Origin: Mobula hypostoma
Lineage: Eukaryota
Length of the DNA stretch: 64,000 nucleotides
Assembly (NCBI RefSeq): GCF_963921235.1
Contig: NC_086108.1
Location: 88,476,001 to 88,540,000, forward strand
Reading direction: 5' to 3'
How positions within the stretch are numbered: position 1 is the first letter of the stretch; every line of letters begins with the position of its first letter. A program made the translations under genes and the position numbers. The notes under the pieces are model-generated. The model was not told the DNA's origin. It saw only the letters and a program-made list of their open reading frames with translations, and searched no databases. Shown in pieces: positions 2,883 to 63,110 of the stretch.

Positions 2883-3094
2883 CAACACACATCAAGGTTG
2901 CTGGTGAACGCAGCAGGCCAGGCAGCATCTCCAGGAAGAGGTACAGTCGACGTTTCAGGCGTCCTGACGAAGGGTCTCGGCCTGAAACGTCGACTGTACC
3001 TCTTCCTAGAGATGCTGCCTGGCCTGCTGCGTTCACCAGCAACTTTGATGTGTGTTGCTTGAATTTCCAGCATCTGTAGAATTCCTGTTGTCTG
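2883..3094. mobile_element. Palindromic non-autonomous Penelope-like insertion
   Basis: 79-bp inverted arms 2882-2960 / 2980-3058 with 2 mismatches; flanked by direct repeat CTTCCTGAATG (2872-2882, 3095-3105); same sequence as GIY-YIG-linked copies at 33.4 and 47.2 kb. Confidence 0.8.
2961..2994 (+). ncRNA. Minimal type I hammerhead ribozyme motif
   Basis: GTC-CTGACGA-AGG(GTCTCGG)CCT-GAAA-C-GTC-GAC; intact catalytic core, predicted cleavage after C2991. Confidence 0.72.
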
Positions 3095-3846
3095 CTTCCT
3101 GAATGACAAGTTTCTGTTTCCCAGATTTGATGAAGCATCCTGGAACTTAAGTAGTTTAAGCAATTTCTGGTTTATACATGATTTCCAGTACAGTTACTTG
3201 CATTTTTTAAAATGTAATTTCCTGAATTGCAAGGTGGTTTCCACACAATGGGCATAAAATTAAATTTCAAAACATTGCCGGGAGTAGCAACAACCACTTT
3301 ATGTGGCCTGTTTTGACCTTAAAAAAACTTTAATTTAGATCAAGAAGGATTTTAGTGAATTCTGAACTTTGTCCACAGGAATTAATCCCCATTTTACATC
3401 AGCTACATCATTGCATCTTAAACATGGTCCACAACAAGCTCTAAATCATGATGAAAACATGTCAAGCAAAAATGTGTCATTCTCTCAAAACTTTTCTTAA
3501 TCTTTCTCACTGCAGTGAAAGGTCTCCGACGTGTAATGCTAACATGCGTGTTAACTCACTAACACACAGAGCAACACACATAAAATGCTGGAGGAACACA
3601 ACTAGTCAGGCAGCGTTTGTGAAGAGGAACAAATTCCACTGAAGTCTAGGTGGGGTGGTGAACTCAGTTTTTAAAAGTAAAGGGTCAATTGCAGTGACCA
3701 GAGAATACAAAGGCATTTTTAAAAATAGCCTGTAATCATCAGACTCTTTGCAAACAATTATTAACCTTAATTCAATAACTTTTTCTTGGAACCTCCCATC
3801 TGATTGAGAGTCAGAGGCAGATGTCCATAATTTGGAGTAGCAAGAT

Positions 3847-4157
3847 GTGTTGCTTTACCCCTTGCCCATCCTCTGGGTCCCCCACCCCCCGCGTCTTTCT
3901 TCCCAGACCTCCTGTCCCATGATCCTCTCGTATCCCTTTTGCCTATCACCTGTCCAGCTCTTGGCTCCATCCCTCCCCCTCCTGTCTTCTCCTATCATTT
4001 TGGATCTCCCCCTCCCCCTCCAACTTTCAAATCCCTTACTCACTCTTCCTTCAGTTAGTCCTGACGAAGGGTCTCGGCCTGAAATGTCGACTGCACCTCT
4101 TCCTAGAGATGCTGCCTGGCCTGCTGCGTTCACCAGCAACTTCTATGTGTGTTGCTT
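3847..4157 (+). mobile_element. Penelope-like element terminal repeat fragment
   Basis: C/T-rich segment followed by hammerhead motif and gatgctgcctggcctgctgcgttcaccagc; reverse complement of the 47.2-47.5 kb copy. Confidence 0.8.
4056..4093 (+). ncRNA. Minimal type I hammerhead ribozyme motif
   Basis: TAGTC-CTGACGA-AGG(GTCTCGG)CCT-GAAA-T-GTC-GACTG; helix I AGTC/GACT. Confidence 0.68.
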
Positions 4158-4439
4158 TGAAAAGGCTTTGTATTTACATAAATGGGGTTCCAGTTATTTA
4201 ACAGCAAATCTTCACAGGCAGGAAGAACTAAATGATCAAGCAAGCAGCAACGCAAAGATAATGCTGGAAGAACTCATCAAGCCAGTCATCTGTGTAGGAG
4301 GGAAGCATTAAATGTTCACTGACATACCGAGTATTTGCAACACTTTGTTTTTATTACATTGATATTGTAATCACAAAAGTGCATTGAAGGCAGACTTCTC
4401 ACTTGATTAATCTTCTGACTCTTCAAAGTCTACCCGTTA

Positions 4440-5270
4440 CTTCTGAGACAATGCAGGAGTGTGATAGAATCCATTCTACTTGCTTGGATGACTGCACTTC
4501 ATGTATACTTGACACCATCTAGAACAAAACAGTGCTCTTCATTGACACCCCAAGCAGCAGTTAAAACAGTCACACCCTCCATGGTCTGAGTACCGTGGCC
4601 ACACAGCATCCCATCGCTAAAATGCAGACTGATAGGTGGTAGATATTATAGCTGCCACAGTAACACAGTAATACTTGGTAATGATCATCTTGAAAAATAG
4701 TGAATCTAATCACTGACATTCCATGGCATTAGCACTACTGAGTTCCCCACCTTTAACATCCTGGGGGCCTCAACTGATTAGAAACTCAACTGCAACAGCC
4801 ACATTAAGACTATGATTATAGGAGAAGGTTAGAAGCTGTGTGTCCTGTGGAGAATGTCTCACTTCCTGATGTCTCAATGTCTTTCTGCCATCTACAAGGA
4901 GCAGGTCAGGAGTGTAAACAGTCTCCACTTACCTAGGTGAGGAAAGCTCCCACAGCTCTCAAGAAGCCATGCATTATTCAGGACAAAGTAGGCCACATGT
5001 TTGGCACCTCATTCACCATCTTAGGTATGAATTCTCTCCACTCCCCTATACAGTGGCTGAAATTTGTACCATCTCCAAATTATGCTACTTAGACAACTCC
5101 CACAGCACCTACCAAGCCTATAATCTCTGACACCTAGAACAATAAAGTGAGTGAGCCACTTCCTTCAATAACCACAACGTGCTTACTTTATCTCTGCTGA
5201 ATCAAAGTCTTGAAAATTTCCCTGTTCAAGAACACTGTGGGAATTATGTAGATTGTAGTGGTTCACCTTA
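4440..5270 (+). mobile_element. Old degenerate LINE 3' fragments (CR1/L2 group)
   Basis: Two related diverged segments (gacaccatc...acaaa.cag...ttgacaccc and caggacaaagtaggccacatgtttggcacc); a similar piece lies at 29905-30010. Confidence 0.4.
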
Positions 5271-5330
5271 GCAAGAAGAAGAAACAATGAGTAACTTATG
5301 TTGCCAATGTCAATGGCAGTCTCAACCTTA

Positions 5331-6211
5331 TGTTACGTACCCGGTAACTGGGTTGCCAAACCAGCAGAAATGGATCACTCAGTTGGAGTCTGGATTACTA
5401 GAACTAAGAAAGTTTTATTAAAGAAACAAGCAACACAGTACTCTAATCAAAAGGATAATGAATGCAACAGTTCAGCAATGATAAACATACATGTACACAG
5501 AATTAAGATAACAGGATCAATCAAGCTCTATCGTTGTCTAGGGGTAAATGACCAGTTTCAAAGTGACACAAAGTTCAGTTCAATTTAGTTCAGTTCAGTT
5601 CAGTTCGCAGTAATCGCTGCCGTGGCGATGGACAGTGGGGGGAAGGAGAGAGAGAGCAAAAATGAATGAATATTCAAAACGGCTTCCACACAGACCTTCA
5701 CAGTCAGCTTTCAGGTGAGCCCTTTGTGATGTCATCTGAGGTCACCGACCGTGACCCCTCCGTTTCCAGATACGATCGTTTCTCTGCAGTGAACCCGGCA
5801 CCCAGGCAAGGGTGGACACACACCAGGTTCCCACCGATCGTGCCTTTCCACCCTGAGCGTCTATGGCTTGATCCCGCGACCAGCCGTCCAAAAGCTTCCC
5901 ACCGACTTGTGAGAGACGCACCGCTTCCAGGGTCTCGTTATCTCGGGTGTCGTGTGTGTCCTTGCCTTAGTGAACCTGTCCCTTTTTATCCCCCTGCTGG
6001 GGTATCGCCTGTCCATCACTTCAAACAGTTCAGGGTTCAAAGGGGGAGCCGACCTTGACAGCTCTCCTTCCCTTCATTAACATCTCCAAATGCTGCTCCA
6101 TTGTTTTCCTTCTCTCTCTCTCTCCTGAAGACAGGTGGCAGACCAACTGCTGATCCCACTGGTGCCAGCCCAAGACAGCTAACATCTTTATCGATGTGTA
6201 TTCTTGTCACA
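5331..6211 (-). mobile_element. Solo LTR of the Gypsy family found at 41746-44156
   Basis: Reverse complement of the 41746-42618 LTR over its full length; TG...CA termini; near-TSD CTTA/CTTT. Confidence 0.9.
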
Positions 6212-6234
6212 CTTTTAATAGATGAAATAAACTT

Positions 6235-6326
6235 CCTGATGAAGGGTCTCGGCCCGAAACGTCAACTGTACCTTTTCCTATAGATGCTGCCTGGCCTGCT
6301 GCATTCCACCAGCATTTTGTGTGTAT
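6235..6326 (+). mobile_element. Penelope-like terminal fragment with hammerhead core (6236-6263)
   Basis: CTGATGA-A-GGG(TCTCGG)CCC-GAAA-C-GTC; the 5' arm of helix I is missing. Confidence 0.7.
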
Positions 6327-6539
6327 TGATGCAATAAACAGTTGGTTTTGGCAGTTTTATAGTCCTACATTATTAATTATCAACGAGTGTGGTGATTTTT
6401 TGTGTACAGCTCCCAAGGGAATCATCAAATATTCCCGTTCAGATCAATTACAGCTGAAATCTGCAGCCGTACTGCTGTGAGAAGCCTTGTTTCAAGTCTT
6501 TGAACTTTGAAGTCATTTAAAAAGTATAGCAATCTTTAA

Positions 6540-21059: not shown

Positions 21060-24000
21060 GGGGGACTTCCGCATGCGGCTCAATGGAGTAATACATAAAT
21101 TTTGCGGCTGCCTTTAATTCCTCCTTTTCCCCAGTTTAAACGTTGACTTTTTAACTTTTATTTCTTGCATCTTAGAGGGAAATAGTTGTCATTATGTCAT
21201 ATCCTTTAAGAAGTGGAAAGCAGCCTTTTGAATCCAGCAATGGAAAGGGAAAAACTTTGAAAGAAAAATCAGAAGATATGCCTGTCTGGGCTGAGCTTTG
21301 GAACGTGCGTTGATGGCTCTCGACAACAAAATAGACAATAACACTTCTGAGTTGAAGTCGTTCCAACAGAGTTTTCGGAATATTGAAGAAAATATTATTT
21401 CCTTGAATACTGAGTTTAAAAAATCGAAACGTCAGGTTGTGGATATTTCAATCCACTTGGAACAGGCTCAACATAAAATTGTCGATTTAGAGGCTAAGTC
21501 TCGTCAGAATACCATACGAAATATCAAACTCAAGGAAGGTTCTGAGAGTGGGAATTTAATGGACTATTTTGCCAATTTGTTTCAATCTTTGTTTCTGGAT
21601 ATTCTACCTCAACCTCCTGATATTGAAAGATCTCATCGAATTTCCATATCGAATTCTCAGACCTCAGGTAAATCTCGCCCTATTTTGGTCAACTTTCTGT
21701 GCTTTAAAGGCCAAATTATAAAATGTGCGAGGAAACAGTGTTTTAAAATTGAACGGTTCTGAGATCCCTTTTTACGAAGATTATCCATGGGAAATTATGG
21801 AACAGTGGATCAAATTTGCCCCAGCGATGAAAACTGCTTATGAAAAGGGACTTTTTCCATCGCTTCGCTATCCAGCAAGATTAAAATTATTTCCTAAAAA
21901 TTCTACACCTCGTTTGTTTTCGGATTCCCAAGCAGCATTGGACTTTGTTAACTCTATTGTGGAGTCGGCTGACACATGAAGGATATTTGGGTTGCTGAAT
22001 AATTTTCTGAAAGAAAACAGGCTTTGAAGACTTTTGATATGCTGAAAATTCCCTTTGACTGATGAACTATTTAAAGAAGTGGTGAACTTCTTGGTTTGAC
22101 TAATGAATGACTTTTTTGAAGTCTGTTTGGTATATGGAGTGAACTAACACAGTGGGCAGATTATTAACTGGTTTGATTATCTGCTTCTTTCTTCCTTTTC
22201 TTTTATTAAGTGATAGCTTTCATAGTTTATATAGATTCTTTCTTATATAGTGAGGAGTGTTTAGAATAGATAATTAGCTTTAGTTTTAAGCTAAAGGAAT
22301 AATGGTGTCTTTTTCTTGTTTGAGAATGTACTGCTTAGGTTTAAATAGCGTTGTTTTGACGCCTTTGGAGACTGTTTTTGCATTCCTAGTTTATTTTCAA
22401 TGATTAACTATAAACATCTTTTTTCTGTTTCTCTGCTGAGCTTTTCTTATCTTAGGGTCATGTGATTTCTTTGTAAAGGGGAGGGGGGGAAATTGGGAGA
22501 GAAACTTTTAAATCACTATTTATATTGAGCCGCATGTGGAGTTCCGCTTTTCTCTCTTTCTTTGGGAAGGCATTCCGGCTTTTTCCTTCCTTTTTGCCGG
22601 ATTTCTACCTTTTGGGATGGGGGGAGGATTTGGGGTTTTTTTGCATTTTGGGGTTTATGATAGGGTTTCTTTTTCAGGGTTTTTCCCCATTCTGGAGCTC
22701 CGGAGGATGCGTGTTTTCTATATGGTTATACTCATCATCGCCATCTTTGATTAGCCCACAATGGTATGCGTGTATTTTTGTGTTTAAAACAATATTCTAT
22801 GGTTAATAAACAGACAAATGTTATTAGTTGGAACATACGTGGCTGGAATCATCCTATTAAGTGAAAGAAGACTTTAAAAATTATTAACCGATTCCAGCCT
22901 GATATAATTTTTGTTCAAGAAACGCACATCAGAATGGGCGATCAAAATAGATATTTTTAAAACGTGGAAATATCATGCTACTTGTCAAAATAAAACAAAG
23001 GGAGTATCTATTTTTATTAAAGTTAATATTTTATTTATCCAACAAGATAGCATCTCAGATATCAATGGTAGATTTTTAATTATTAAAGGATCAATCTGTA
23101 ATAGAAAAATTGTCTTGGTTAATCTATATGGACCTAATGTAGATGATCCTTTTTTTAAAAAAATGTATTTGGTTTATTACCAGACTTAAATGAATATATG
23201 CTGCTGATGGGAGGTGACTTCAACTGTTGTTTAAACCCTTTGATTGACCAGAGTTCAACGAATCAGCAGCTTCCAAGTGATTCAGCATCACTTATTAATT
23301 CCTTTTTAATTGATTATGGTTTGATAGAAATCTGGAGAAATCTATATCCTAATGATAGAGATTATTCTTCTTATTCACATGTCCATAATTTGCGATTTTT
23401 TTCCCCAAAGTCCAGAAATGTGAATATGATGCTATTGCTGTCTCAGATGATGCACCTTTAAGCTTAATTTTTGAATTGAATGATGTTAGCAATGTAAACT
23501 TGCCTTGGCGTTTTCCAGAAAACTTATTACAAAGTTTGGATTCAGTTAAATTTATAGAGATTCAAATAAAAGATTTTTTTCTTTTTAATAATACAGAAGA
23601 TATGTGGAAATTGATTATATGGGATACATTTAAAGCGTATTTGCGAGGTCAGATAATCTCCTATTTGGCTAAGCTTAAGAAACAGACAAAAATAGAGTTA
23701 GATAGGATTTCAAAACAAATTAAAGACTTGGATTACACTTATGCAGTTTCTCCTAATATTGACTTATTTAAACAAAGGGTTGAACTTCAATCACAATATA
23801 ATTTATTATTAACTTATCCTATTGAAAGAAATTTGCTTAAATTAAAAAGTCAATTTTATGTGTTTGGAGATAAAGGTAATAAGCTACTAGCATCCCAACT
23901 AAAAGCAGTTAGAGCTAAAAGACAAATTTTAAAAATTCGTAAGGGAGATGGTAGTTTAGCTTGTAACTATGAAGATATTAATAACATTTTTCAAGACTAT

Positions 24001-32359: not shown

Positions 32360-33395
32360 CTTTGAAGCCACGTGTCAGTCACAAGAGTGAACTGTCCAGG
32401 GGTGGCCATACGTCAATTTTTTTCCCCACACACAAGTTCAGATGTGCCATACAACTCTTGTACCCCATTCAATTCTGGTAAAAAATGTTAATATAGAACC
32501 CGTGCATTGGGGTGGGGGGAATGCGTCTGAACTCATATGAAAAAATTGATGCATAGAATGTAAAAGGTTAAGCAAATGATCAAAGACTGGTTTACTCTCA
32601 GTTCCCAAGCAATGGAAACTATGAAACAATTGATCTTCCACTGATACCTGCAATAATTCTATTGAGTAATGTTTTGCAATGGACCCTAAAGTTAATTTAA
32701 TATTCATTGAAAGTTTTGCACTCTCTTGACATTACAACCATTGCCATTGAACCTTACACTCATACTTTCACAGGTTAACCTGTTTGATAATATAAATAGC
32801 TGGTCGGAAAATTAATTTAAGGAAATTCAATTAAAGTTGGTCACAAATAAATTGGACATAGACTTTGAACTGACTAAAGAATACCTTTGTTCATGAATAA
32901 GAGTGGCTCACTAATAGTGTAAGCACCAGGTCTTCCTCATCGCCAGATCTGTCAGAGAAATCACTCAAAAACACCAGTTTCGGACGGAAGTAAAGAGAAC
33001 TTTATTCATGATATCATGGGGAGTGTAACCACTAACAGTGGGTTTTGAACTCCAAATATACAGGGAGCACAGCTCCTTTTATACACGTACAAATTGATTT
33101 GCAAAAGCAAAGTCTGTTCGATTCCCTTGTGAATTACCTTGTTTCCCTTGTGAATTACAAAAGCTAGGTTCTCATGCAGTTCCCTTGGGATAAGCTGCAC
33201 CCATTGCAACAGCCAAAGTTTTAAAATATTCTGTCAAAGACAGTTTGCCCATCTGCCTGAGGCTGATTCTTACAAAATAAGCTACTGCAGGAAGAGTATT
33301 TATTCTCTGAATTGTCTCTGCTAAAAGCCAAGCCCATATCTATATAAACTATGCTGCAAACTAGTTTCCACACTCACAAAAGGCAATATTAACCC
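32360..33395 (-). mobile_element. Gypsy-like remnant: LTR (32950-33395), PBS, leader, possible gag start
   Basis: On minus: TATAAAAG, AATAAA, LTR end ...TCTGACA, then TGGCGATGAGGA (32934-32945, like the tRNA-Ser PBS TGGCGACGAGG); MATPGQF..D.W from 32409. Confidence 0.55.
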
Positions 33396-33963
33396 AAAAT
33401 ACTCTGCAGATGCTGGGGTCAAAGCAACACTCACAACACGCTGGAGGAACTCAGCGGACTGGGCAGCATCTGTGGAAACGAATAGTCAATGTTTCAGGCC
33501 GAGACCCTTTGTCAGGACTGAAGAGGGCAGGGGCAGGGACCCTATAAAGAAGGTGGGGGGAGGGTGGGAAGGAGAAGGCTGGTAGGTGCCAGGTGAAGAA
33601 CCAGTAAGGGGAAAGATCAAGGGGAGGCAGGGAGGTGATAGGCAGGAAAGGTGAAGAAGGAATGGGGGAAAGCACAATGGGTAGTAGGAGGAGGCGGAAC
33701 CATGAGGGAGGTGATAGGCAGCTGGAGGAGGGGGTGGAGTGAAACTGGGATGGGGGAAGGGAGGGGGAAGGGAATTACCAGAATTTGGAGATGTTTGGAA
33801 TGTTTATGCCAAGGGGCTGGAGACTACCCAGACGGTAGATGAGGTGTTACTCCTCCAACCTGAGTTTCGCCTCATCGTTGCAGAAGAGGAGGCTATGTAT
33901 GGACATATCCAAATAGGAATGTGAAGCAGAGTTGAAGTGGGTGGCAATCGGGAGGTCCTGTCT
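33396..33963 (-). mobile_element. Penelope-like element 3' end (GIY-YIG C-terminus plus terminal repeat with degenerate hammerhead)
   Basis: DLPIATHFNSASHS...EAKLRLEE*HLIYRLGSLQP; CAGTC-CTGACAA-AGGG..CCT-GAAAC at about 33484-33520. Confidence 0.85.
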
Positions 33964-35553
33964 GATGCACCATACAACTCTTGTACCCTGTTCAATTCTT
34001 GTAAAAATGTTAATATAGAACTTGTGCGGTGGGGGGGGGGGGCGGTAGAAGAAAAACACACCTGAACACGTGTGAAAAAAATTGATGCAAATGATCAAGT
34101 ACTGGTTTAACCTCAGTTCCCAAGTAATGGAAATTATGAAACAATTGATCTTCCACTGATACCTGCAATAATTCTATTGATTAATGTTTTGCAATGGACC
34201 CTAAAGTTAATTTAATACTCATTAAATTAACATTAAAAGTTTTGCACTCTCTTGACATAACATATACATGGTAAACGGTAGGGCATTGAAGAATGCAGTA
34301 GAACAGAGGGATTTGGGAATAATAGTGCATAGTCCCATGAAGGTGGAATCTCATGTGGATAAGATGGTGAACCTACTTTATTAGGTTAACCTGTTTGAAG
34401 AAAGCTTTTTGTATGCTGGCCTTTATAAATCAGAGCATTGAGTATTGGAATTGGGATGTAATGTTGAAATTGTATAAGGCATTGGTAAGGCCAAATTTGG
34501 AGTATTGTGTACAGTTCTGGTCACTGAATTATAGGAAAATGTCAATAAAATTGAGAGAATACAGAGGAGATTTACTAAAATGTTGCCTGGGTTTCATCTC
34601 CTAAGTTACAGAGAAAGGTTGAACAAGTTAGGTCTTTATTCTTTGGAGTGTAGAAGGATGAGGGGGGACTTGATAGAGGTATTTAAAATGATGAGGGGGA
34701 TAGATAGAGTTGACGTGGATAGGCTTTTTCCATTGAGAGTGGGGGAGATTCAAACAAGAGGACATGAGTTGAGAGTTAAAGGGCAAAAGTTTAGGGGTAA
34801 CATGAGGGGGAACTTCTTTACTCAGAGAGTGGTAGCTGTGTGGAACGAGCTTCCAGCAGAAGTGGTTGAGGTAGGTTCGATGTTGTCGTTTAAAGTTAAA
34901 TTGGATAGATATATGGACAGGAAAGGAATGGAGGGTTATGGGCTGAGTGCAGGTCGGTGGGACTAGGTTAGAGTAAGAGTTCGGCATGGACTAGAAGGGC
35001 TGAGATGGCCTGTTTCCATGCTGTAATTGTGATATGGATATACAACAACAATTGCCATTGAACCTCGTACTCATTAACTACTTTATTAGGATAACCTTTT
35101 TGATAATACAAATAGCTGGTCGGAAAATTAATTTAAGGAAATTCAATTAACGTTGGTCACAAATAAATTGGACAGACTTTGAACTGACTAAATACCTTTA
35201 TTCATGATATCATGGGGAGTGTAACCACTAACAGTGGGTTTTGAATTCCAAATATACAGGGAGCACAGCTCCTTTTATACACGTACAAATTGATTGCAAA
35301 AGCAAAGTCTGTTCGATTCCCTTGTGAATGACCTTGTTTGCCTTATGAATTACAAAAGCTAGGTTCTCATGCAGTTCCCTTGGGATAAGTTATACCCATA
35401 GCAACAGCCAAAATACTGCAGGTACAGTATTTATTCTCTGAATTGTCTCTGCTAAAAGCCAAGCCCATATCTATAACAAACTAAGCTGCAAACTAGATTC
35501 CATACTCACAAAAGGCAATATTAACCCTCTGTCTATCAAAATATTAACTCACA
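33964..35553. repeat. Second copy of the 32443-33395 segment, carrying a CR1 insertion; includes the LTR 5' end (TG at 35553 on minus)
   Basis: Direct homology gatg..ccatacaactcttgtacc ... ctcacaaaaggcaatattaaccc. Confidence 0.85.
34262..35040 (+). mobile_element. 5'-truncated CR1
   Basis: ORFs 34395-34604 and 34580-34966; same subfamily as the antisense copy starting at 35962. Confidence 0.9.
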
Positions 35554-35961
35554 ATCTTTTCCTCCACACTGTGAATCTTAAGTTTTTATTAATATTGGTT
35601 AAAATTTGGTTGATACAGTACTATACAAATGTCTTGGGCACTCTAGCTATATACATGCAACCAAGACTTTTGCACAATACTGTACCTTAAACCTTTCATT
35701 TCTGGAATTATTCTCATGAAACTTCCCTGGACCTTCTTCAATGCCAGGACGTCTTTTCTTAGACAAGAAGCTGAAAACTGTTCACAATGCTCCAAGTGCA
35801 ATCTGACCAATACACACTGTACTGTATTCTATCTGACACTTCTTTGCCCATTCTTTTTATCTGGCCAAGACCTTCTGCAGACTCCCTTCTTCCTCAAAAC
35901 TACCTGTGCCTCCATGCATCTTCGCATCTTCCACAACCTTGGCCACAAAGCCATCAATTAA

Positions 35962-38640: not shown

Positions 38641-39204
38641 TTCAAATCTATCATGCAAATCATTTACAATGCGATAAGAAATTTTCCCAGCCCCTACAGA
38701 ATGCCACTAGTCATTGGCAGCCAACCAGAAAAGGCCCCCCTTTATTCCTACTCTTTGTCTCCTGCCAGTAAGCCAATGCTGTATCCATGCTAGAATCTTT
38801 TTCATAAACACATTTGGACTCTTATCTTGTTTAAGCAGCCTCATGAGTGACACCTTGTCAAAGGCTTTCTGAAAATCCAAGTAAACAACATATACTGACG
38901 CTCCTTCATCTATCATGTTGTAGAAAAGTACAGCACAGAAACAGGCCCTTCAGCCCATCCAATCTGTGCTGAATCATTATTTAACCTAATCCATTGACCT
39001 GCATTCAGACAATAGCCCTCCATACCCTCCCATTCATGTACCTATTCAAACTTCTTAAATGTTAAAAATTGAACCCACATCCAACAATTGCATTGCAGTT
39101 CATTCCACATTCTCACCACCCTCTGAGTGAAGTTCCCCTCAAAACATTTCACCCTTTGCTCTTGACCAATGACCTAGTCACAGTCTCACCCAAATTCAGC
39201 GGAA

Positions 39205-39403
39205 GAACAGCAGGCCAGGCGGCATCTATAGGAAGAGGTATAGTCGACGTTTCGGGCTGAGACCCTTCGTCAGTCCTGACGAAGGGTCTCTGCCCGAAAC
39301 ATCAACTGTACCTCTTCCTATAGATGCTGCCTGGCCAGCTGCGTTCCACCAGCATCTTGTGTGTGTTGCTTGAATTTCCAGTATCTGCAGATTTCCTCGT
39401 GTT
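39205..39403. mobile_element. Palindromic Penelope-like insertion with two back-to-back hammerhead motifs, inside CR1 debris
   Basis: Inverted arms about 39208-39273 / 39276-39341; minus core 39246-39273 (CTGACGA..GAAAC-GTC); plus core 39276-39303 (CTGACGA..GAAAC-ATC). Confidence 0.8.
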
Positions 39404-39704
39404 CAGCAGAAAAAGCCCGCTTTCATTTACCCTATCTAGACCCCTTAATTTCCTGAAAGAATTCCAACAGATTTGTCAGGCAAGATTTCCCCTTCAGAAA
39501 ATCATGCTGACTTTGGCCTATTTTATCAGGTGCCCCAAATACCCCAAAACCACATCCTTACTAATGGATTCCAACATCCTCTCAACCACTGAAGTTAGAC
39601 TAACTGACTCAATTTCTTTTCTTCTGCCTCCTTCCAGTCTTAAACAGTGGAGTGGCGTTGAAATGTTCCAGTTCTCTAGAACTATTCTAGAATCTAGTGA
39701 CCTC

Positions 39705-44156: not shown

Positions 44157-45737
44157 GTAACTTCACACACTTCATGACCCCTGACACCTAGAACTCCCTC
44201 CATACTGCTACTGTCTTCCAGTGAAGACTGATACAAAATACTTATTCATTTCGTCCGCCATTTCCTTGGTCCCCATTACCACCTCCCCAGCATAGTTTTC
44301 CCAATGGTCTGGCAGAGGGAGATTGGAAATGTGACTGTGTGATACCATTACAATAACCTCTTACTCAAGACAAAGGAGCTGATTATTGACTTCAGGAGGA
44401 AACCAGAGATTCATGAGCCAGTCCTCAAAAGGATCAGAGGTGGAGAGGGTCAGCAAATTTAAAATCCTCAGTGTTATTGAATTGGACCTGTCCTGGACCC
44501 AGCACACAAGTGCAATTATGAAGAAAGCACAACAGTGCTTCTACTTCCTTTGGAGTTTGCGAAGATTTGGCATGACATCTAAAGCTTCCACAAACCTCTA
44601 CAGATTATGCATTGGAGAATACATTTACTGGCTGCATCACAGCCTGGTATAGAAACACTAATGCCCTTGAACAGAAAATCCAATAAAAAGTAGTAGATGT
44701 GGCCCAGACAATAATGGGCAAAACCCCCGCCATCATTGAACACATCTACAAGAAACGTCCGATTAGGAAAGCAGCATCTATCATCAGATCCCCACCACAC
44801 AGGCCATGCCTTCTTCTCAATGCTGCCATCAGGAATGTAGTAAAGGAGCCTCAGGACTCACATCACCAAGTTCAGGAATAGTTATTTCCTCTCAACAATC
44901 ACGCTCTTGAACAAAAGGAAATAACTTCATTTGCCCCATCATCGGAATGTTCCCACAACCTATGGACTCACTTTCAAGGACTCATCTCATGTTCTCAATA
45001 TTTATTGCTTTTTATTATTTCTTTTTTATATTTGCATGATTTGTTGTCTTTTGCACACTGATTGAGCACCCAAGCTGGTGTGGTCTTTCAATGATTCTGT
45101 TATGGTTATTATTCTATTATGGATTTATTGAGTGTGCCCACAAGAAAATGAATCTCAAGGTGGTATACGGTGCTATGCATGTACTTTGAACTTTACTTTC
45201 TGTACCTAATAAAGTGGCCACTGAGTGCATTTCTGTTCCACAGTTTATATTGCACTACAGGGCACACTTGCTACAAATCTCACAAGATCCAGAGGTTCAC
45301 TGCCAAAAGAACTGTAATATAAATACAAGTTAAGCACATGTCAGAAGTCATCTGAGCAGTGGCTGCAAAGTTTTGTACAGATGCTGAGATTTTCCCCATG
45401 ACATTATTCAGGCTTTTAAAATTTGAAGCTCAAAACTCACATGTCCCTCTTCATTGGTTTCTCCATCCAGTAGGATGGCCCACAGACTGCCATCCTGGTT
45501 ACACAGTTAAAAATAATACCATGATAAGTCAACGGTGAACAGCCATCTTCTGTCTACAGCATGTGGGATTCTTCAGTACAAACCATGTGCCAAATTAAGC
45601 AATTTATATTGTAGCACAATTGTCTTAGAGAGCCCCACCAACTGATGAAAAACAGATAAATGATTTTATGTTGTTGGCCAAGGTCAGCATTTATTGGACT
45701 TCTTCAATTGGGCCCCAAGTCCACTAGATTATTGGGT

Positions 45738-45985
45738 CACACACACAAAATACTGGAGAAATCCAGCAAGTCAGGTCGCATCTACAAACGATGTTTGTAT
45801 GAGTGGACTAAACAGTTGACATTTCGGGCCATAACCCTTCCTCAGAATGTAAATATCAGACTTGATGAAGGGTCTTCACCTGAAACATCAACTGTTTAGT
45901 CCCCTCCATAAACACTACCCGATTTCCTCCAACACTTCATGCACATTGCTCAAGATTTCCAACATCTGTAAAATCTGTTCTGTTT
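45738..45985. mobile_element. Old palindromic Penelope-like insertion with decayed hammerhead motifs
   Basis: ttgacatttcgggccataacccttcctcag facing ttgatgaagggtcttcacctgaaacatcaactg. Confidence 0.6.
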
Positions 45986-46314
45986 GAATTATTGAGTCAG
46001 GTCATATGTCGTCCAGACCAGGCAAAGATAGCTGATTTCCTTCTTTGAAGTATTAGATGGGATATTACATCAATCCAGAAGTAGCATGACTATGTCATTG
46101 AGAAGACTTCAACTCAAAATTCCAGAAATTTAGAATATCAAGTACTTGGATTTCAATTCTCCAAATCCACACTAGAGTTCACTACTTCAAATGTTGCAGA
46201 ACTTTACCTGCTAGTCCAGTCAATAACATACACGACTACTCCACATACACTGGGTAAACAATGATTAGTTAAATGCTAATATTCAGTGGTGAAATTACCT
46301 GTCACAACTCTTAC

Positions 46315-46604: not shown

Positions 46605-47533
46605 GTAGAGCTGATTGTGGACTTCAGGAAGGGCAAGACGAGGGAACACAAACCAATCCTCAGAGGGATCAGAAGTGGAGAGTGTGAGCAATTTCAAGTT
46701 CCTAGGTGTCAATATCTGAGGACATAACATGGACACAACATATTGATGCAGCTATAATGCAAGTCAAGACAGCAGTTATATTTCATTTGGAGTTTGAGGA
46801 GATTTGGTTTGTCAACTAAAACACTCAAATTTCTACAAATGTACCGAGCAGAGCATTTGGACTGGCTGCATCACTATCTAGTATGGGGGAGTGGGGGGGG
46901 GGGGGCAGGGGGAGGGATGCTACTGCACAAGATCAAAGTTGTTGCAGAAACTTGTAAAATCAGTCAGCTCCATCATCATTTCTAACATCTGTAGTATCAA
47001 CAACAACTTGAAGGAGCAATGCCTTAAGGCAGTGGTGTCCATCATTAAGGATCCCCACCACCCAGGACTCTGTTGCACACACACACAACTCAGTTTTGTC
47101 CCTCCTCTATATTTATCATGTATTTCATTGTACTGCTGCCATAAAGTTAACACATTTCATGACACAAACATGAGGAAATCTGCAGATGCTGGAATTAAGC
47201 AACGCACATAAAATTTGCTGGTGAACGCAGCAGGTCAGGCAGCATCTCTAGGAAGAGGTACAGTCGACGTTTCGGGCCGAGACCCTTTGTCAGGACTAAC
47301 TGAAAGAAAAGCTAGTAAGAGATTTGAAAGTGGGAGGGGGAGGGGGAGATCCAAAATGATAGGAGAAGACAGGAGGGGGAAGGGATGGAGCCAAGAGCTG
47401 GACAGGTGATTGGCAAAAGGGATATGAGAGGATCATGGGACAGAAGACCTAGGGAGAAGGGGGACGGGGGGAAGCCCAGAGGATGGGCAAGGGTTATAGT
47501 GAGTGGGACAGAGGGAGAAAAAGAAGGTGCAAA

Positions 47534-47565
<32 letters not shown>

Positions 47566-47715
47566 GGATGGGGTACGAGGGGTTGGTGGGACATTAGCGG
47601 AAGTTTGAGAAGTCAATGTTCATGCCATCGGGTTGGAGGCTACCCAGACGGAATACAAGATGTTGTTCCCCCAACTCCAATTTCATGACATATGCCAGTG
47701 ATATTAAACGTGATG
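46605..47715 (+). mobile_element. Rex1-type 3' fragment with a nested Penelope-like piece
   Basis: ELIVDFRK and IIKDPHHPG motifs; tail atttcatgaca appears on both sides of the insert. Confidence 0.65.
47163..47678 (-). mobile_element. Penelope-like element 3' end
   Basis: Minus strand encodes EQHLVFRLGSLQPDGMNIDFSNFR*, then (TTTA)n and TAGTC-CTGACAA-AGGG..CCC-GAAAC-GTC-GACTG (47261-47298). Confidence 0.88.
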
Positions 47716-50361: not shown

Positions 50362-53300
50362 AACATTCATTCAGGTGCCTTGCCGTTCGGCATGGGCGAT
50401 CGTGTCTCTCCATTCATCATGGTCCCTGACCCTCCGAATCGTAGTTGTTGCCTCCCCTGTTTCTAACCATGATGTTATTCCATCTATCATTTTCATTCTC
50501 TGTCAGCCTCTGCTTCTTTTTCCTTCCAGCTTTTCAGTTGTAACTAAATGTTCTAATGTCTCTCTTCGCATGATGCGTCCAAAGAATTTTGATTGATGTT
50601 TTCTAATTTATTTTTTTTATATAAAGGTAATGCAAGTTTTGTTTTCGTTCTCTGTAGAACTTCTTCGTTGGTTATCCTGTCCGTATACGATATGCATAGC
50701 ATTCTTCTGAGGAACCACATCTCTGCTGCATTGATTCTTTTTTCCATTGCATTTGGGATGGTTCATGACTCGCAGCCATACATCAATATAGGAAGAATGT
50801 AGCAGCTGAGAGCTCTAAGGCAGATGTCAATTGCTATTTTCTTGTTCTTTAAGATGTTTCTCATTTCTGTAAATGCTATTCTTGCCAGTGCTATTCTTGC
50901 TTTTATGTCTGTTTCGCATTTGCCATCAGATGTTACCCATGATCCAAGGTACTTGAAGTTGTGAACTTATTTCAGGATTTCATTTCCCAATACGATCCTA
51001 CAGTTTGGGATATCAGGTTTCTTTGATATTACCATTACTTCAGTTTTCTTTTTGTTTAAGGTTAGGTCAAGTCTTTCGCTCTGTGTTGATGGTAGATACT
51101 AGTTTCTGTAAATTTACTTCACTGTTTGCTATCAGCACTATCATCCGCATAGCGGAGGTTGTTGATATTGTATCCTCCTATACTTATTCCAGGTAGGTCT
51201 TGTATGTTTCTCATGTTTTTACTGTACAGGAAGAACAGGTCTGGTGACAGAACACAACCCTGTCTGACTCCTCGCTTTATTGGCTGATATTCACCAATCT
51301 CATTGTCTATCCGTATGGTTGCACTTTGTTGCCAGTAGAGATTGCTGATTATTCTTAGATCTTTTCTGTCGATATTAATATCTTTAAGCATTTTCATGAT
51401 GACTTGGTGTTTCACTGTGTCAAAGACTTTTGTGTAGTCAATGAAACAGAAGTATAGGTCTTGTTGTACTTCTATTGACCTTTCAATAATATTCCTAAGA
51501 ATATAAGTAGCGTTTGATGTTCCCTTGCCTTCGACAAAGCCGCACTGTTCTTCACTGATCTCCGGTTTAATTTTGTTTCTTATTCTGAGCATGATGATTC
51601 CAAGTGGAATTTTTGTGAGGTGGCTCATTAAACTAATTGTTCTGTGTTGTCCACACTCTGTTACACCTGGTTTCCTTGGCAACGCAATGAATACTGTCTT
51701 TAAAAGATCTCCTGGTACTTTGCCACTGTTGTATATTCTATTCAATAAGATTGTTAATTTCTCTACACCAAAATCTTCTAGCGCTTCATACAGTTCAACT
51801 GGAATGTTATCTGGTCCTAATAATTTCCCCTTTCACATTTTCTTCATAGCATGTTCCACTTCTTTCAGTATTACTGAGCCCTCGTTGTTGTTGCCAATAT
51901 CAAAGTTGTCCTCTTGGTCTTTGTTGTCATATAGGTCTTTGATGTATTTATGACCATCTTTGCATTATTTTTCCTTTTTCCATAATTGCAGAGCTGTCTT
52001 TTGCTTTTATACATCCTGTTGTTGCCCCGCTTTCCTTCCGATTTGTGACCTCTTTGATCTCGTGGTGCATACGTTTGCTATTGTTGGTCTTCTGCCATTG
52101 TTCTATTAACTCACATTTATTCTTAAGCCACTTTTCTTTAGCTTCCTTGCACTTGGTTGTTATCTGTGCATGCAAGGATACGTAGGCTTTTTCGTTTTCC
52201 TTATATTTTCTTCTTTGTTCCGTAAGATTCAGAATTTCTTCTGTCATCCATTTCTTTTTAGCTTTTTTCTGTTGTTTGGGAATCACCTCTTGTGCTGTTG
52301 TGTTATGCTGTCTCTGAGATTTTCCCATTGCTGTTCTATAATGTCAAGTAGGGTATCGTGCACAATCCTGATTTGATGGAGGCAGACGTGAGAGCACGGA
52401 GGAACATCTGGTGAAACTTCTGAAATGCCTGTTTCGCTGCCCCTATTATTGTGTGATCCAGAATCTCTGGAGGGGAAGGCCCCGAGTCCTCGGCTTTGCT
52501 TGTTGCCCGGCGGCTGGGGCGGGGTCAAAGCGCTCGGCAGAGATGGTGCTCGGTGTCAAAGGGCTGGTCGGAGGCTCGAAGTTTTCGGACAGACTCAAAG
52601 TGGTCTGTGGTCGGATGCTTCCAGGGTGCTGCATCAGCAAGTTTGCGGCGCTGGAGGTTCATGGCAGGAAGAGTTTCTCCCTTCTACCGTCTACGTGAAA
52701 TGATGGGCTATCGGGACTTCGAGACTTTTTTTTTTAAAACCATGCCCATGGTCTGCTCTTATTAAATTATGGTATTGCTTTGCACTGTGGTAACTATATG
52801 TTATAATTATGTGGTTTTGTCAGTTTTATTCTTGGTGTCCTGTGTTTGTGATATCATACTGGAGGAACATTGTATCATTTCTTAATGCGTGCATTACTAA
52901 ATGACAATAAACGAGGACTAAGTGTCCTCATAATCTAATCTAATAGTGATGTTTTGTAGCGCCTCGAATTTGTTCTTCACTGTTTTTTGGAATTCATTTT
53001 TGATGTCACTGTTTTTTTCTCAAAAGTCCCAAATTCAGCTTTGGCTCCTCTCGGTCTTTTAAGCTCCGAGTCTCAGGCACATCACGCTGATTATTGGTAC
53101 GTGATCACTAAAGCAGTCTGCACGTTTTGCATGATTTCAGAGCATTTCCATACCTTCTCCTTGTAAGCACGTAATCAATCTGGTTTCTGGTGTTGTCCCC
53201 TGGGCTCTTCCATGTCCATAGTTTTCTTGGGTGTTGCTTGAAGACGGTATTACCAATTATATAACCTTTTTCTGCGACTCATGTAGCTAGTCGTTCACCT

Positions 53301-54215: not shown

Positions 54216-54616
54216 TTTGCTGAGCAATTGCACAGCACCGACACCGCAGGGTGAACAACAGAGGAACGAAAAAGTGATTTTGCAAATGAGGTGGGTACCA
54301 CTTGCCAATCAAACTGGCCATACCTATTGGCCTTCCTACAAAATATCCTCCCTTTCATTGGTTTTTAAAATTTTCTCCAGTCATAATTATGAGATATTTT
54401 TGGACAGGGTTACATAATGCTGTCTTATTGTTCAGCTTTAATTAACAATGGTCTACCACTTCCTGTTCTACTGCAACCCTGTTTCATCATATGTATTTCC
54501 TGGCAAGTTTCAAGAGTCAGGTCTAAAGGATATTTATGATTTTTACAGGACCCACCAATTTTGCTGGAATTTTTTGCTTCTCTTGGCCTCAAAACAATTT
54601 CTGCACAATGTCACAA

Positions 54617-54785
54617 AACAAGAGAAAAATCCACAGATGCTGGAAATCCAAGCAACACACACAAGATGCTAACGGAACTCAGCAGGCCAGGCACCATCTA
54701 TGAGCCAAAACGTCCACTGTGCTTTTTTCCCCCCCATACTTGCTGCCTGGCCTGCTGAGCTCCTCCAGCATTTTGTGTGTGCTGC
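54617..54785. mobile_element. Small palindromic Penelope-like remnant (hammerhead core largely deleted)
   Basis: acacacaagatgct..ggaactcagcaggccaggca facing tgcctggcctgctgagctcctccagcattttgtgtgt. Confidence 0.65.
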
Positions 54786-54880
54786 TCCGCACAACATGAA
54801 TGATCTTCAATTCTTTTGCAAACCTTCCAGTAATTCCTCAATATTCTATCCTTCATATGGCTTCCAGAGGTTACCCATCT

Positions 54881-57592: not shown

Positions 57593-57774
57593 CTAAACCC
57601 AAATGACAAAAATAAAAATGGTTATCACCCAATACTTAACACAGCTTTGTACATCGTTCTGTGCTCTCCAAATTCTGAGTAGTCACTTAAGAAGCATTAG
57701 GGTTTAGATGCTTATTCTGCTTTAAGGTTTCATATTCTTGAGCAGGGTTAACAATTGTTTTGTAGTCTCCTGAA

Positions 57775-60020: not shown

Positions 60021-60295
60021 TGTGGTTAAGAAGGCATACAGTATATTGGCCTTCATTAATCGTGGAATTAAATTTAGGAGCCGAGAGGTAATGTTGCAGC
60101 TATATAGGACCCTGGTCAGACCCCACTTGGAGTACTATGCTCAGTTCTGGTCGCCTCTCTACAGGAAGGATGTAGAAGCTATAGAAAGGGTGCAGAGGAG
60201 ATTTACAAGGATGTTGCCTGGATTGGGGAACATGCCTTATGAAAACAGGTTGAGTGAACTCGGCCTTTTCTCCTTGGAGCGACGGAGGATGAGAA
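60021..60295 (+). mobile_element. CR1 RT fragment; further CR1 debris at 55545-55910, 59150-59460, 60340-60875
   Basis: LYRTLVRPHLEYYAQFWSP. Confidence 0.8.
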
Positions 60296-60879
60296 GCTTT
60301 TTCAAGCATAGATCGCCATCCTCAGAACAATTTTCAATAATTTCCCTTCCATTGATATTAGTACAAGTGACTTGTAATTATCTGGTTTATCCCTGCTGCC
60401 CTACTTGAACAAAAAAAGTACAATAGTCACAGGCTTCCAGTCATTTGGAACCTCACTGGTGGCCAATGAAGATGTAAATATCTCCATCAGGACCTCAGCA
60501 ATCTCACACTAAAGCCTGGGATAAATCTCAGCAGATCCAAAGGAGTTGTCCTCCTTAATTCTGCCAAGGCATCTACATCCTCCTTTATAAACTTAATATG
60601 CTCAATTACTACTTTGTTCTTGTCCTCTGGCTCCATACACAGTAGATTGTAGGATACTTTGTCCTATAGCAGAGGTACCTTAAACTAGGTGCCATTGCTC
60701 TGGAGGAAGGGGCAAAAAAATTTAGAGGATGCAAGGAAGAAGTTTCTCAATCAGAAGGTATTTGGACGTGGAACATGCTGCCTGACTGCCAGCTACATTT
60801 AAGTACCTAAGTGAACACTGGAATTGCAAAGGCACAGTCGGCTACAGACCAAGTACCGGTAAATGGGATTAATATAGAG

Positions 60880-60959
60880 CAGGGGTTCCCAATTTTTTTT
60901 ATGCCATGGACCAATACCATTAAGCAAGGGAGTCTGTGGTTCTAGGTAAGAAACCCTTG
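60880..60959. mobile_element. 80-bp hAT-type MITE
   Basis: CAGGGGTTCCCAA...AAACCCTTG termini; imperfect 8-bp TSD ATATAGAG/GTATGGAG; a related end lies at 27500-27534. Confidence 0.55.
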
Positions 60960-61977
60960 GTATGGAGAGATACTTGAAGGATAGTTAGCTCAAGAGCACT
61001 TCTTTGGTATCTGGTACAGTGATGAAGGAATACCAAGGGGCAACAGTAAAACACTGAGGGCAAATTTAAGTCACTGATAATTTTTCCTCCTTACAATTTG
61101 CTTTACCCCCCACCCAGAGGTCGGTACTAAGTGGAAGACTGGAATTCATTGAAGTACTGGCACTACAGTTACTAGACTAGGAGGCTAATAGTGTGATTAG
61201 ATCAGTGAACACAGTCAATAAGCACAGACACAGTGGGAGATAAATAAATTAGATCCAAATTCAACATTCTTCTGTTTATGGCGGAGTAGGAGTCGGAGTC
61301 GGAGTCGGATCTTCTACTATAGCAGTTGATAGTAAAATGTGGTTATGCAGTTGTCATACCAAGCTGCTCATGCATCCAAATTGAATGCAGTTTTATGCTG
61401 CATCAAATTTAAAAATTGGTAAGGATGAACAGGGAGATGCTGAATTTTTTTCCCCCAGCACATTGTAGGAACAAGTCACCCGTCTATGGATGCTGCCTAT
61501 ACTTCTCACTCACTCAGTTAAACATCCAACATAATCAACAACCTCACCCATACTAGTCATTCTCTCTACTCCTAACAGGAGGAAGATTTAAAAAAAACTG
61601 AAAGCACGTACCAACAGGCTCTAGAACAGTTTCTATCCCACTGTAATCGGACTGTTGAACGGACGTCTTATATGACAAGATGGATTCTTGACCTCATAAT
61701 AAAGTGCAAGATCATAATGAACCTTATTGTTTACCTGCATTGAATTTTTTTTCTCTAGCTTTTCCACTTTATTCTGTATTGTTATTGTTTTACCCTATTC
61801 TACCTCAACTGACCCTATTCTACCTCAACTCACTGTATAATGTTTTGATCTGTGTGAACATCATGCAAGACAAGCTTTTCACTGTTATCTTGGGATATGC
61901 AACAATAAACCAATGTCCATTTATTGTTGAAGGGTTCAGTGTATCACTGGCAAAGAATGATAGTTGCAATAACTTAC

Positions 61978-62132
61978 TTCGTAGGTAATACCATCAACAT
62001 CACAGTTAAGGGGTTGAGCTTGAGAATCATCTGTAATGAATTTGCCAAGTGGAGTTCTCAAAGAGGACCAAGCATCTCGAGCTTCCAGCAAAAATCCTTT
62101 AAAGGTTTCACTTGAATTGCTTTTCAATGTCA
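61978..62132 (-). CDS. FRRS1: FRRS1-like exon (reeler); most 5' exon found in the window
   Basis: (V)TLKSNSSETFKGFLLEARDAWSSLRTPLGKFITDDSQAQPLNCDVDGITYE; tttttaag| ... GAA|gtaagt; FKGFLLEAR is the reeler signature. Confidence 0.93.
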
Positions 62133-62971
62133 CTTAAAAAAAAGTGCAGAATTCAGCATTAATTGAAGTTAGATGCTTCAATGTTTTAAGATGGATACCA
62201 GATTTCAGTAGGAAAAACCATACATAGTAAAATTTGCAAAATGTTCCAAATAATAAAATGTACAAAGGTCAAACAAAGCACATGATGCAAAACTCCATGC
62301 CCTTCCCTTGCAGATTTCCAACTTTAAAATTCTTGAGAGTACAGTGCAAAGGACCAAGTCTCTCAGCACCTGGTTTCTTCTCTTCCCCCCCCCCACCCCA
62401 CCCCTATCGCACAAAAGGGACAGCTTTACTGGAATGGAAAGCTCCTGACCAAACATGCATTAAAAAATTCTCTCTGGAATAGAGTTTTTGCACAGTTTCA
62501 TAACAAAGGAAGTCTCACTTCCACCATAGATATAATGTCTTCTTTTAAAAAAAATCACAGCAACATAATGGCATTTTACAAAACAAGTCTCTGCAGGAAA
62601 CAAAAAGATAGATAGAACATAAACAATTTTGGAAATACTGGAGTCTGGCAACAACAATGGAGGAGAAACAGTTAACGTTTCAGATCAATCATTATTCAGA
62701 AATAAGAAAACAAACAGGTTATATCACAGAGAAAGAAAAGCAAACCAAAAAGAATGGCATGATACTTTGGGGATGAAAAATTAGTTACAGGATTTGTAGC
62801 ACCTGACATTACTTTCTCCCCAAAGCGGATAGGTAAAACTAATCAAGGGCACTACTAAATTACAAGTGTCACTGGACAAATATAGTCCCTATGAAGGGAC
62901 CCAACGACATTCATTGTGAGGTACTGAGCGTCCCAGGTATGGATCAAACAGAAAATACACATCCGATCCAT

Positions 62972-63110
62972 TGACACAAGAAGTACTGCAGTTGCTGGAA
63001 AGCTGGAACAATACACACAAACTGCTGAGGAAGCTCATCAGGTCAGGCAGCATTGACAGATGGCAGTAAACAATCAATGTTTCAGCCCAAGACCCTTCAT
63101 CAGGACTGGT
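62972..63110 (-). mobile_element. Penelope-like terminal fragment with decayed hammerhead
   Basis: Minus strand: CAGTC-CTGATGA-AGGG..GCT-GAAAC-ATT-GATTG. Confidence 0.65.

What the first reader, a model, noticed from the sequence alone, without database searches (positions are those of the whole stretch)
2961..63108. Dispersed family of minimal type I hammerhead ribozymes carried by Penelope-like terminal repeats
Seen: at least nine copies of CAGTC-CTGA(C/T)GA-A-GGG(TCTCGG)CC(C/T)-GAAA-C-GTC-GACTG, at 2961+, 4056+, 6236+, 33484-, 39246-, 39271+, 45860+, 47261- and 63071-. Two lie directly downstream of GIY-YIG C-terminal coding sequence. Helix I (CAGTC/GACTG) and helix II pair, while helix III is reduced to the self-complementary ACGT. 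Established: Penelope-like elements carry such minimal hammerheads, proposed to act as dimers, and newt satellite 2 has a similar CUGAUGAAGGG core. Inference: copies 2961, 4056 and 39246 keep all catalytic nucleotides and may still cleave.
Basis: partly seen in the sequence, partly recalled or inferred. Interest (0 to 1): 0.7.

Follow-up and report, generated by a model that had tools for sequence, protein, structure and literature searches.

The report
Decayed Penelope stubs with hammerhead motifs
The repeated 38-base motif is real and matches the known minimal hammerhead ribozyme at the end of a Penelope-type jumping gene, but every copy here is a broken or folded-back stub that likely no longer cuts RNA, so this is an ordinary example of a described kind of element.

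Summary
Observation confirmed: ten core-bearing copies (the nine listed plus 45813-45850 minus) and one half copy; none in shuffles. They lie in nine separate 5'-truncated insertions of an endonuclease-bearing Penelope-like element of Neptune/Nematis type. Evidence: GIY-YIG C-terminal remnants 84% identical to a stingray-labelled RT-GIY-YIG protein, 11-13 bp target-site duplications, fold-back arms, and two classes of 3' end about 35 nt apart (the known 'tail'). Helix I covaries across unrelated families that share this core, so the hammerhead fold is well supported for the lineage. The claim that copies 2961, 4056 and 39246 may still cleave is weak. 2961 and 39246 sit inside long fold-back hairpins and have lost part of helix I; 4056 has lost the ACGU palindrome. 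No copy keeps every element, and differences are mostly CpG decay. Seven of ten arms begin within 6 nt of the core, at an initiator-like motif, and none begins at the cut site; the element's RNA likely starts there. Minimal PLE hammerheads are published (Cervera and de la Pena 2014), and this scan has noted this family and this end pattern many times in the same genome. Cleavage was not tested. Low interest.

The parts
2872..3105 (.). Locus A: fold-back insertion; inverted short arm 2883-2960 (-), direct long arm 2961-3094 (+), exact 11-bp TSD at 2872-2882 and 3095-3105
   Evidence: (I17: 79 nt, 97%)
2959..2996 (+). Hammerhead copy: core and ACGU intact, helix I 3 bp, G10.1-U11.1; buried in the fold-back hairpin; predicted cut after 2991
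3846..4158 (+). Locus B: about 200 nt of pyrimidine-rich pLTR, hammerhead and short 3' end; 11-bp TSD (3846-3856, 4148-4158) that overlaps the element's own end
4056..4093 (+). Hammerhead copy: core intact, helix I 5 pairs, palindrome broken (AUGU), G10.1-U11.1; least damaged copy outside a hairpin
6221..6339 (+). Locus C: 95-bp stub starting 2 nt before C3, hammerhead 6231-6268 without the 5' strand of helix I, short 3' end; 12-bp TSD with 1 mismatch
33392..33981 (-). Locus D: older subfamily; GIY-YIG C-terminal remnant 33778-33981 with one stop, 254-nt spacer, hammerhead 33483-33520 (G8>A, G16.2>A, C17>U), long 3' end; no TSD found
39195..39411 (.). Locus E: head-to-head fold-back joined at the core; hammerheads 39241-39278 (-, helix I 5' strand absent) and 39271-39308 (+, G16.2>A, pair 2.1-1.1 broken); 10-bp TSD candidate with 1 mismatch (not above chance on its own)
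45728..45999 (.).
47154..47692 (-). Locus G: last 29 codons of the GIY-YIG domain (47597-47683), 295-nt spacer with a TTTA microsatellite, hammerhead 47261-47298 (G8>A), long 3' end; 13-bp TSD with 1 mismatch
54608..54786 (.). Locus H: fold-back of the same family truncated inside the hammerhead (no CUGANGA); one long and one short arm
62975..63108 (-). Locus I: older copy, hammerhead 63071-63108 (G16.2>A, C17>U, one helix II mismatch), long 3' end; starts 5 nt before C3
63266..63996 (+). Decayed PLE ORF remnant (RT C-terminal region to GIY-YIG end), facing away from locus I and running to the window edge
   Evidence: tblastn with P0002, E 1e-6 for the best piece
3567..3629 (-). Old 3'-end remnant of the family without hammerhead
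   Evidence: (D5)
4243..4305 (-). Old 3'-end remnant of the family without hammerhead
   Evidence: (D5)

Best explanation
The ten motifs lie in separate, 5'-truncated insertions of a Penelope-like retrotransposon and match its minimal type I hammerhead, which is predicted to cut RNA as a dimer in intact elements but likely no longer cuts in any of these damaged or folded-back copies. In the intact element the order is RT-GIY-YIG ORF, 250-300 nt pyrimidine-rich spacer, hammerhead, about 100 nt more, then the next unit (shown for the 3' part here and in full for the related locus L001). Two tandem hammerheads would pair their ACGU palindromes into a shared helix III and cut after GUC (from the literature; not tested here). 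The endonuclease makes a staggered cut (inferred from the 11-13 bp duplications). Reverse transcription likely starts inside the uncut RNA at one of two sites about 67 and 100 nt past the cut site (two end classes shown here; internal priming shown in vitro for the anole element). It usually runs off at the 5' edge of the hammerhead, where the RNA likely begins. One run gives a stub; two runs joined head to head give a fold-back with one short and one long arm. After insertion the copies decay neutrally, mostly at CpG.
For: PLE identity: the window remnant P0001 is 84% identical over 55 aa to P0002, a 457-aa RT plus GIY-YIG protein with a CX3CXXC linker, labelled Hypanus sabinus by its source; tblastn finds three ORF remnants in the window. 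Insertion marks: TSD score >=9 at 5 of 9 loci against 9 of 300 random position pairs. 3' ends fall at +64 to +78 or +98 to +103 after C17 in 8 of 9 arms measured, the ninth at +41. Fold-backs A, E, F and H each have one long and one shorter arm, as described in PMC8557442 and PMC11167929. Fold: among 116 distinct metagenome matches to the core pattern, the free helix I positions 1 and 2 are paired in 95% and 94%; at cluster level 39 of 45 Watson-Crick pairs against 19.7 +/- 3.2 in shuffles, 0 of 20000 as high. Covariation score 0.374 against 0.155, and above all slid controls. The window has C-G, U-A, G-C where other families have A-U or U-A, C-G or G-C. Decay: 24 of 80 CpG cells differ from the majority against 13 of 250 other cells; in public contigs G12 is altered in about 7-34% of depth in 6 well-covered runs. 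0 of 10 copies keep core, ACGU, G10.1-C11.1 and three helix I pairs together.
Against: No cleavage or expression data exist for this family. Rfam finds no hammerhead. The covariation comes from other PLE families; no compensatory change was seen among the ten window copies. The search pattern fixed the core and the first three helix II pairs, so their conservation is built in, and the clusters are not fully independent. The fourth helix II pair is unpaired in 25 of 82 distinct rows and helix I pairs 4-5 are weak. Loci D and I show no TSD, and those of E and H are within chance. No full-length element of this family was available, so tandem geometry is inferred. Energy gaps come from a 2D model that does not score the dimer.
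Confidence: 0.85

Rival explanations
1. Some copies still cleave host read-through RNA, for example as a heterodimer of 2959+ and 4056+, which lie on one strand 1097 nt apart and could pair ACGU with AUGU (three Watson-Crick pairs and one wobble).
For: Both keep the full core. For 4056 the hammerhead fold is only 2.8 kcal/mol above the minimum if the RNA starts at helix I.
Against: A transcript reaching 2959 from upstream contains the inverted arm, which pairs with the catalytic 3' half (gap 39 kcal/mol). Both copies have G10.1-U11.1. Even intact minimal dimers cleave weakly in vitro (PMC4209133), and the anole hammerhead needed the element's protein (PMC11167929).
Confidence: 0.08
2. The short units and hairpins are a mobile non-autonomous family in their own right (a MITE-like palindrome or a non-LTR retrozyme) and not by-products of the coding element.
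For: Most copies carry no coding sequence and have their own TSDs. Non-LTR retrozymes were reported in one chondrichthyan genome (10.64898/2026.07.22.740005).
Against: The four fold-backs have four different centres and arm lengths, no tandem array is present, and the same sequence is continuous with GIY-YIG coding sequence at loci D and G.
Confidence: 0.1
3. The 5' ends cluster at the hammerhead edge because of a splice acceptor there or because reverse transcriptase stalls or switches template at short homologies, not because the RNA starts there.
For: The three long copies have a pyrimidine tract ending in CAG just before helix I. In Drosophila virilis the Penelope intron ends at the 5' end of helix I and the start site lies 46 bp before the intron. 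Junctions at A and E show 3-5 nt homologies (sequence).
Against: No shared upstream exon precedes the stubs. A helix read 3' to 5' would be expected to stall the enzyme at its 3' strand, not its 5' strand (inference).
Confidence: 0.35
4. The motif is not a ribozyme but a protein-binding or promoter element that resembles one.
For: No Rfam hit; helix I overlaps an initiator-like motif; hammerhead mutants did not impair insertion of the anole element in vitro.
Against: Helix I covaries around an exact hammerhead core across unrelated families, and related PLE hammerheads cleave with C3/G8-dependent activity.
Confidence: 0.05

Closest known systems
Minimal hammerheads (min-HHR) in pLTRs of metazoan PLEs (Cervera and de la Pena 2014, PMC4209133; parts 1-2 of 4 of the text read, supplement file 2 searched)
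   Same: Type I layout, no helix III, extra base between 9 and 10.1, G10.1-C11.1, palindromic 15.2-16.2, short helix I, mostly single dispersed copies, some opposite-strand pairs.
   Different: Helix II here is 4 bp (7-8 bp in the Schistosoma families). No shark, Callorhinchus or Leucoraja entry in the supplement text searched (figures and file 1 not seen).
EN+ Penelope-like elements, Neptune/Nematis linker type (Craig et al. 2021, PMC8557442; passages)
   Same: C-terminal GIY-YIG, CX2-5CXXC linker in the close relative P0002, strong 5' truncation, inverted 5' arm, 30-40 bp tail on one end.
   Different: No full-length copy in the window; clade not placed by a tree.
Poseidon element of Anolis carolinensis (Frangieh et al. 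2024, PMC11167929; parts 1-2 of 4 read)
   Same: Hammerhead in the pLTR; two internal start sites whose spacing gives the tail; no sign that cut RNA is the template.
   Different: Different clade; there the ORF starts inside the hammerhead, which could not be checked here. TSDs of 11-13 bp and 5' ends at the hammerhead edge are not discussed in the parts read.
Animal non-LTR retrozymes and newt satellite 2 (10.64898/2026.07.22.740005, parts 1-2 of 5 read; PMC6155905, passages)
   Same: Type I hammerhead acting as a dimer; proposed PLE origin.
   Different: Those are tandem non-coding repeats; the copies here are dispersed, not tandem, and two are joined to coding remnants.

Membership tests
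Minimal type I hammerhead of metazoan PLEs | Conserved core C3 U4 G5 A6 N7 G8 A9 / G12 A13 A14 A15.1 / U16.1 H17 | tested here: met
   Intact in 7 of 10 copies; the other three have G8>A (two) or C3>U
Minimal type I hammerhead of metazoan PLEs | Helix I closing the motif, with covariation | tested here: met
   Across families sharing the core. Within the ten window copies no compensatory change was seen.
Minimal type I hammerhead of metazoan PLEs | Helix II with G10.1-C11.1 and an extra base between 9 and 10.1 | tested here: met
   Extra A in 10 of 10; G-C in 5 of 10 and G-U in 5 of 10. Covariation of the first three pairs not testable because the search pattern fixed them.
Minimal type I hammerhead of metazoan PLEs | Helix III reduced to a palindrome at 15.1-16.1 | tested here: met
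   ACGT in 4 of 10 copies; the others are single CpG transitions of it (ACAT 4, ATGT 2)
Minimal type I hammerhead of metazoan PLEs | Self-cleavage as a dimer or with protein help | not testable with these tools
   Needs in vitro transcription or raw RNA reads; only contigs were available
Rfam hammerhead families | Match to a curated covariance model | tested here: not met
   No hammerhead family at E<=1 (window) or E<=10 (4020-4160)
EN+ Penelope-like elements | Single ORF with RT and C-terminal GIY-YIG endonuclease | tested here: met
   Only C-terminal remnants in the window; 84% identical to P0002, which holds RT and a GIY-YIG match (E 8e-4, just below the Pfam cut-off)
EN+ Penelope-like elements | Inverted 5'-truncated arm and one-sided 30-40 bp tail | tested here: met
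   Loci A, E, F, H; ends at +67 and +103 in locus A, 36 nt apart
EN+ Penelope-like elements | Tandem or partial tandem units forming direct pLTRs | tested here: inconclusive
   No tandem unit in the window; no whole genome held
Neptune clade | CX2-5CXXC motif between RT and EN, and RT phylogeny | tested here: inconclusive
   Motif present in the relative P0002, which excludes Penelope/Poseidon by PMC8557442 but not Nematis; no tree built; the motif is not preserved in the window
Non-LTR retrozyme | Tandem non-coding repeats with a hammerhead in each unit | tested here: not met
   No tandem array at any copy; copies are dispersed with their own TSDs

The most novel reading that the evidence does not exclude
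In this family the hammerhead is the very 5' end of the element's RNA: transcription starts at an initiator that overlaps helix I, and the reverse transcriptase copies the uncut RNA from two internal sites and runs off that end, so the stubs and hairpins are run-off products and self-cleavage serves to decap or switch off the RNA rather than to make the template. Tested here only by end positions (7 of 10 arms within 6 nt of C3, none at the cut site) and a TCAGTY motif in 3 of 3 long copies; earlier unreviewed notes of this scan propose the same for this genome.
Probability: 0.45. Interest if true: 0.5.

Novelty: new member of a known kind. Interest (0 to 1): 0.22.

Why it matters
As a ribozyme finding it adds little: minimal hammerheads are a described, general feature of Penelope-like elements, and these copies are fossils. 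What use it has lies in the insertion anatomy. Target-site duplications, two 3' end classes and 5' ends at the hammerhead edge give a testable picture of how this poorly understood class of retroelement copies itself and of what the ribozyme does not do, namely make the template's end. An abundant family in a probably cartilaginous-fish genome would be a convenient source of such junctions and of natural sequences for dimer cleavage assays.

Tried and rejected
Whole-genome counts: no genome is held for this window. Rfam searches gave only sub-threshold miRNA-like hits on the locus E hairpin and one unrelated sRNA. Viral contigs: 0 matches to the core pattern. Expression: no RNA holder listed on record; the runs laid are contigs whose RNA status is a guess, and they show no pile-up of molecule ends, so nothing is concluded about transcription or cleavage. 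Loose contig ends at 47295-47297 fit 5' ends at the hammerhead edge but also fit a different subfamily upstream sequence, so they are not counted as support; those at 47197 continue into tail-like sequence and reflect an indel in copy G, not a true end. Hammerhead versus flank identity between subfamilies was higher for the hammerhead in D and F but equal to the downstream region in I: inconclusive for selection. In metagenome families 55 of 93 copies lose upstream homology within 50 nt of the core, about four times the rate further out, but not at 0-6 nt as here, and subfamily divergence can mimic ends. TATA-like motifs at -33 to -36 from C3 are weak in two of three copies. Search of earlier findings by sequence returned nothing. 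Lunse et al. (PMC5785218) is not held and is known to me only through the review PMC6765202 (passages); it may already list cartilaginous-fish motifs. Literature searches for a report in sharks or rays found none on hammerheads apart from the retrozyme preprint; these searches cover open-licence papers only.
Full report
Observation. A pattern search found 5 copies at up to 3 mismatches and none in 100 dinucleotide shuffles. A looser script found 10 copies at up to 9 mismatches and none in 5 cruder shuffles at up to 14: the nine listed plus 45813-45850 minus. A 3' half copy lies in the inverted arm at 2945-2960. The layout is a 5-nt helix I strand, CUGANGA, an extra A, a 4-bp helix II with a 4-nt loop, GAAA, C, GUC and the second helix I strand. 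Rfam reports no hammerhead family on the window or on the best copy alone; a model that expects helix III would plausibly miss it (inference).

The carrier. The motif is part of a longer repeat. Upstream of two copies lies the end of a reading frame, 254 nt (locus D) and 295 nt (locus G) away. The locus D remnant, read with X at its one stop, found 2 proteins among 7 candidates, both labelled Hypanus sabinus by their source. One, P0002, is a 457-aa RT plus GIY-YIG protein under a host-gene name, 84% identical over 55 aa. It carries CKRKCYTC between the domains, the linker that PMC8557442 gives for Neptune and Nematis and not for Penelope/Poseidon (passages). A third, more decayed ORF remnant runs from 63266 to the window edge. 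P0002 has 1012 relatives at E<=1e-30. The host is therefore probably a ray or another cartilaginous fish (inference). Thousands of contig records in each of four public runs fit the element (3,184 to 29,615 records), so it is abundant in several organisms.

Insertion anatomy. The copies belong to nine loci. Direct repeats of 11-13 bp flank A, B, C, F and G with scores reached by 9 of 300 random position pairs; E and H are within chance and D and I show none (boundaries set by homology). A, E, F and H are head-to-head fold-backs, each with a different centre. 3' ends fall into two classes, +64 to +78 and +98 to +103 nt after C17, in 8 of 9 arms measured (E inverted ends at +41); D, I and one arm of H also carry the long end. 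In locus A the two ends differ by 36 nt. This is the inverted arm and one-sided 30-40 bp tail described for PLEs, which PMC11167929 traces to two internal start sites of reverse transcription on uncut RNA (parts 1-2 read).

Is it a hammerhead? They share no flanking DNA similarity with the window element apart from a microsatellite, but 21 of 121 match P0002. L001 holds a nearly whole element, 47.5% identical, with the motif about 130 nt after the stop and an inverted motif-bearing arm at the 5' end. Of 131 matches, 128 had full flanks and 116 were distinct. Helix I pairs 1, 2, 3 and 4 are paired in 95, 94, 73 and 59% of these, pairs 5 and 6 in about 15%. For 14 clusters plus one window copy, 39 of 45 positions in the first three pairs are Watson-Crick against 19.7 in shuffles (0 of 20000). 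The largest cluster merges more than one family, and singletons may not be independent. On all 126 rows (82 distinct) the covariation score is 0.374 against 0.155 shuffled and at most 0.161 slid. The window family has C-G at the first pair where the others have A-U or U-A. All the features match those listed for min-HHRs in PMC4209133. The core and three helix II pairs were fixed by the pattern and are no evidence.

Do these copies still cleave? Seven of ten keep the core, four keep ACGU, five keep G10.1-C11.1 and five keep the three inner helix I pairs; none keeps all four. The five copies inside fold-backs need 30-51 kcal/mol to leave the hairpin for the hammerhead fold; the other five need 7-12 in 100-nt flanks. 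Differences fall mainly on CpG sites, 24 of 80 against 13 of 250 (N7 may vary by subfamily). In public contigs nearly all listed differences in the motif are CpG transitions, and they include catalytic G12. This is what unselected, methylated copies would show. Published minimal dimers cleave weakly, and the anole one needed protein. Activity of these copies is unlikely but untested.

5' ends. Seven of the ten core-bearing arms lose homology to the native upstream sequence within 6 nt of C3; the other three run on for 200 nt or more. Under a constant truncation rate the chance for five independent loci is about 7e-7 (a simple model fitted to ten arms). None of the five partial arms clearly starts at the cut site. 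All three long copies have TCAGTY with the A 4 or 8 nt before C3, and a TATA-like word at -33 or -36 that is good in D and weak in B and G (motifs recalled; TCAKTY occurs 1.85 times per kb of strand, and B and G are one subfamily). The same letters read as a splice acceptor, and in D. virilis an intron ends at helix I. I favour a start site because no shared exon precedes the stubs. I had seen the clustering before reading earlier notes; the promoter check came from e1-8639351.

Known or new. Minimal hammerheads in PLE pLTRs, including fish Neptune elements, dispersed single copies and opposite-strand pairs, are published. A 2026 preprint reports hammerhead retrozymes in one chondrichthyan (its supplements were not available). 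I found no paper on this family in rays, but Lunse et al. could not be read. This scan holds 2416 notes with these words in at least 68 genomes and 1838 matching notes in this genome; they are unreviewed and are not counted as support. Verdict: a real, correctly identified, ordinary member of a known kind, with the claim of residual activity overstated.

Noticed in passing
window 42368-44156: LTR-retrotransposon-like remnant: two 251-nt direct repeats (98%) around gag-like frames with a SCAN domain (Pfam E 1.6e-7); related pieces lie inverted at 5327-6211.
   Followed up: partly
window 36879-38324 (-), 51119-51832 (-), 23389-24712 (+), and repeats D1-D10: Many LINE remnants; two have Pfam RVT_1 matches. 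No host gene exon was identified among the eight long ORFs examined.
   Followed up: partly
window 34264-36703: Nested inverted repeats between LINE 3' parts (338 nt at 95%, 143 nt at 94%), suggesting an inverted duplication.
   Followed up: no
window 3846-3856 and 4148-4158: The TSD of locus B matches the element's own last 10-11 bases, as if the target had paired with the RNA at the priming site.
   Followed up: partly
window 2883-3058, 39205-39346, 45740-45920: The fold-backs would give long near-perfect RNA hairpins if transcribed (locus A: -174 kcal/mol) and could feed small-RNA or editing pathways; locus E gives sub-threshold miRNA-model hits.
   Followed up: no
proteins P0002, P0003: PLE coding sequence is annotated in public records under host-gene names (a kinase-domain gene and an ATP synthase subunit isoform), either by exon capture or by misannotation.
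   Followed up: no
L001:1005-3663: Nearly complete PLE in a metagenome contig with the same 28-nt core, a different helix I, a probable frameshift between two ORFs, and inverted terminal arms.
   Followed up: partly
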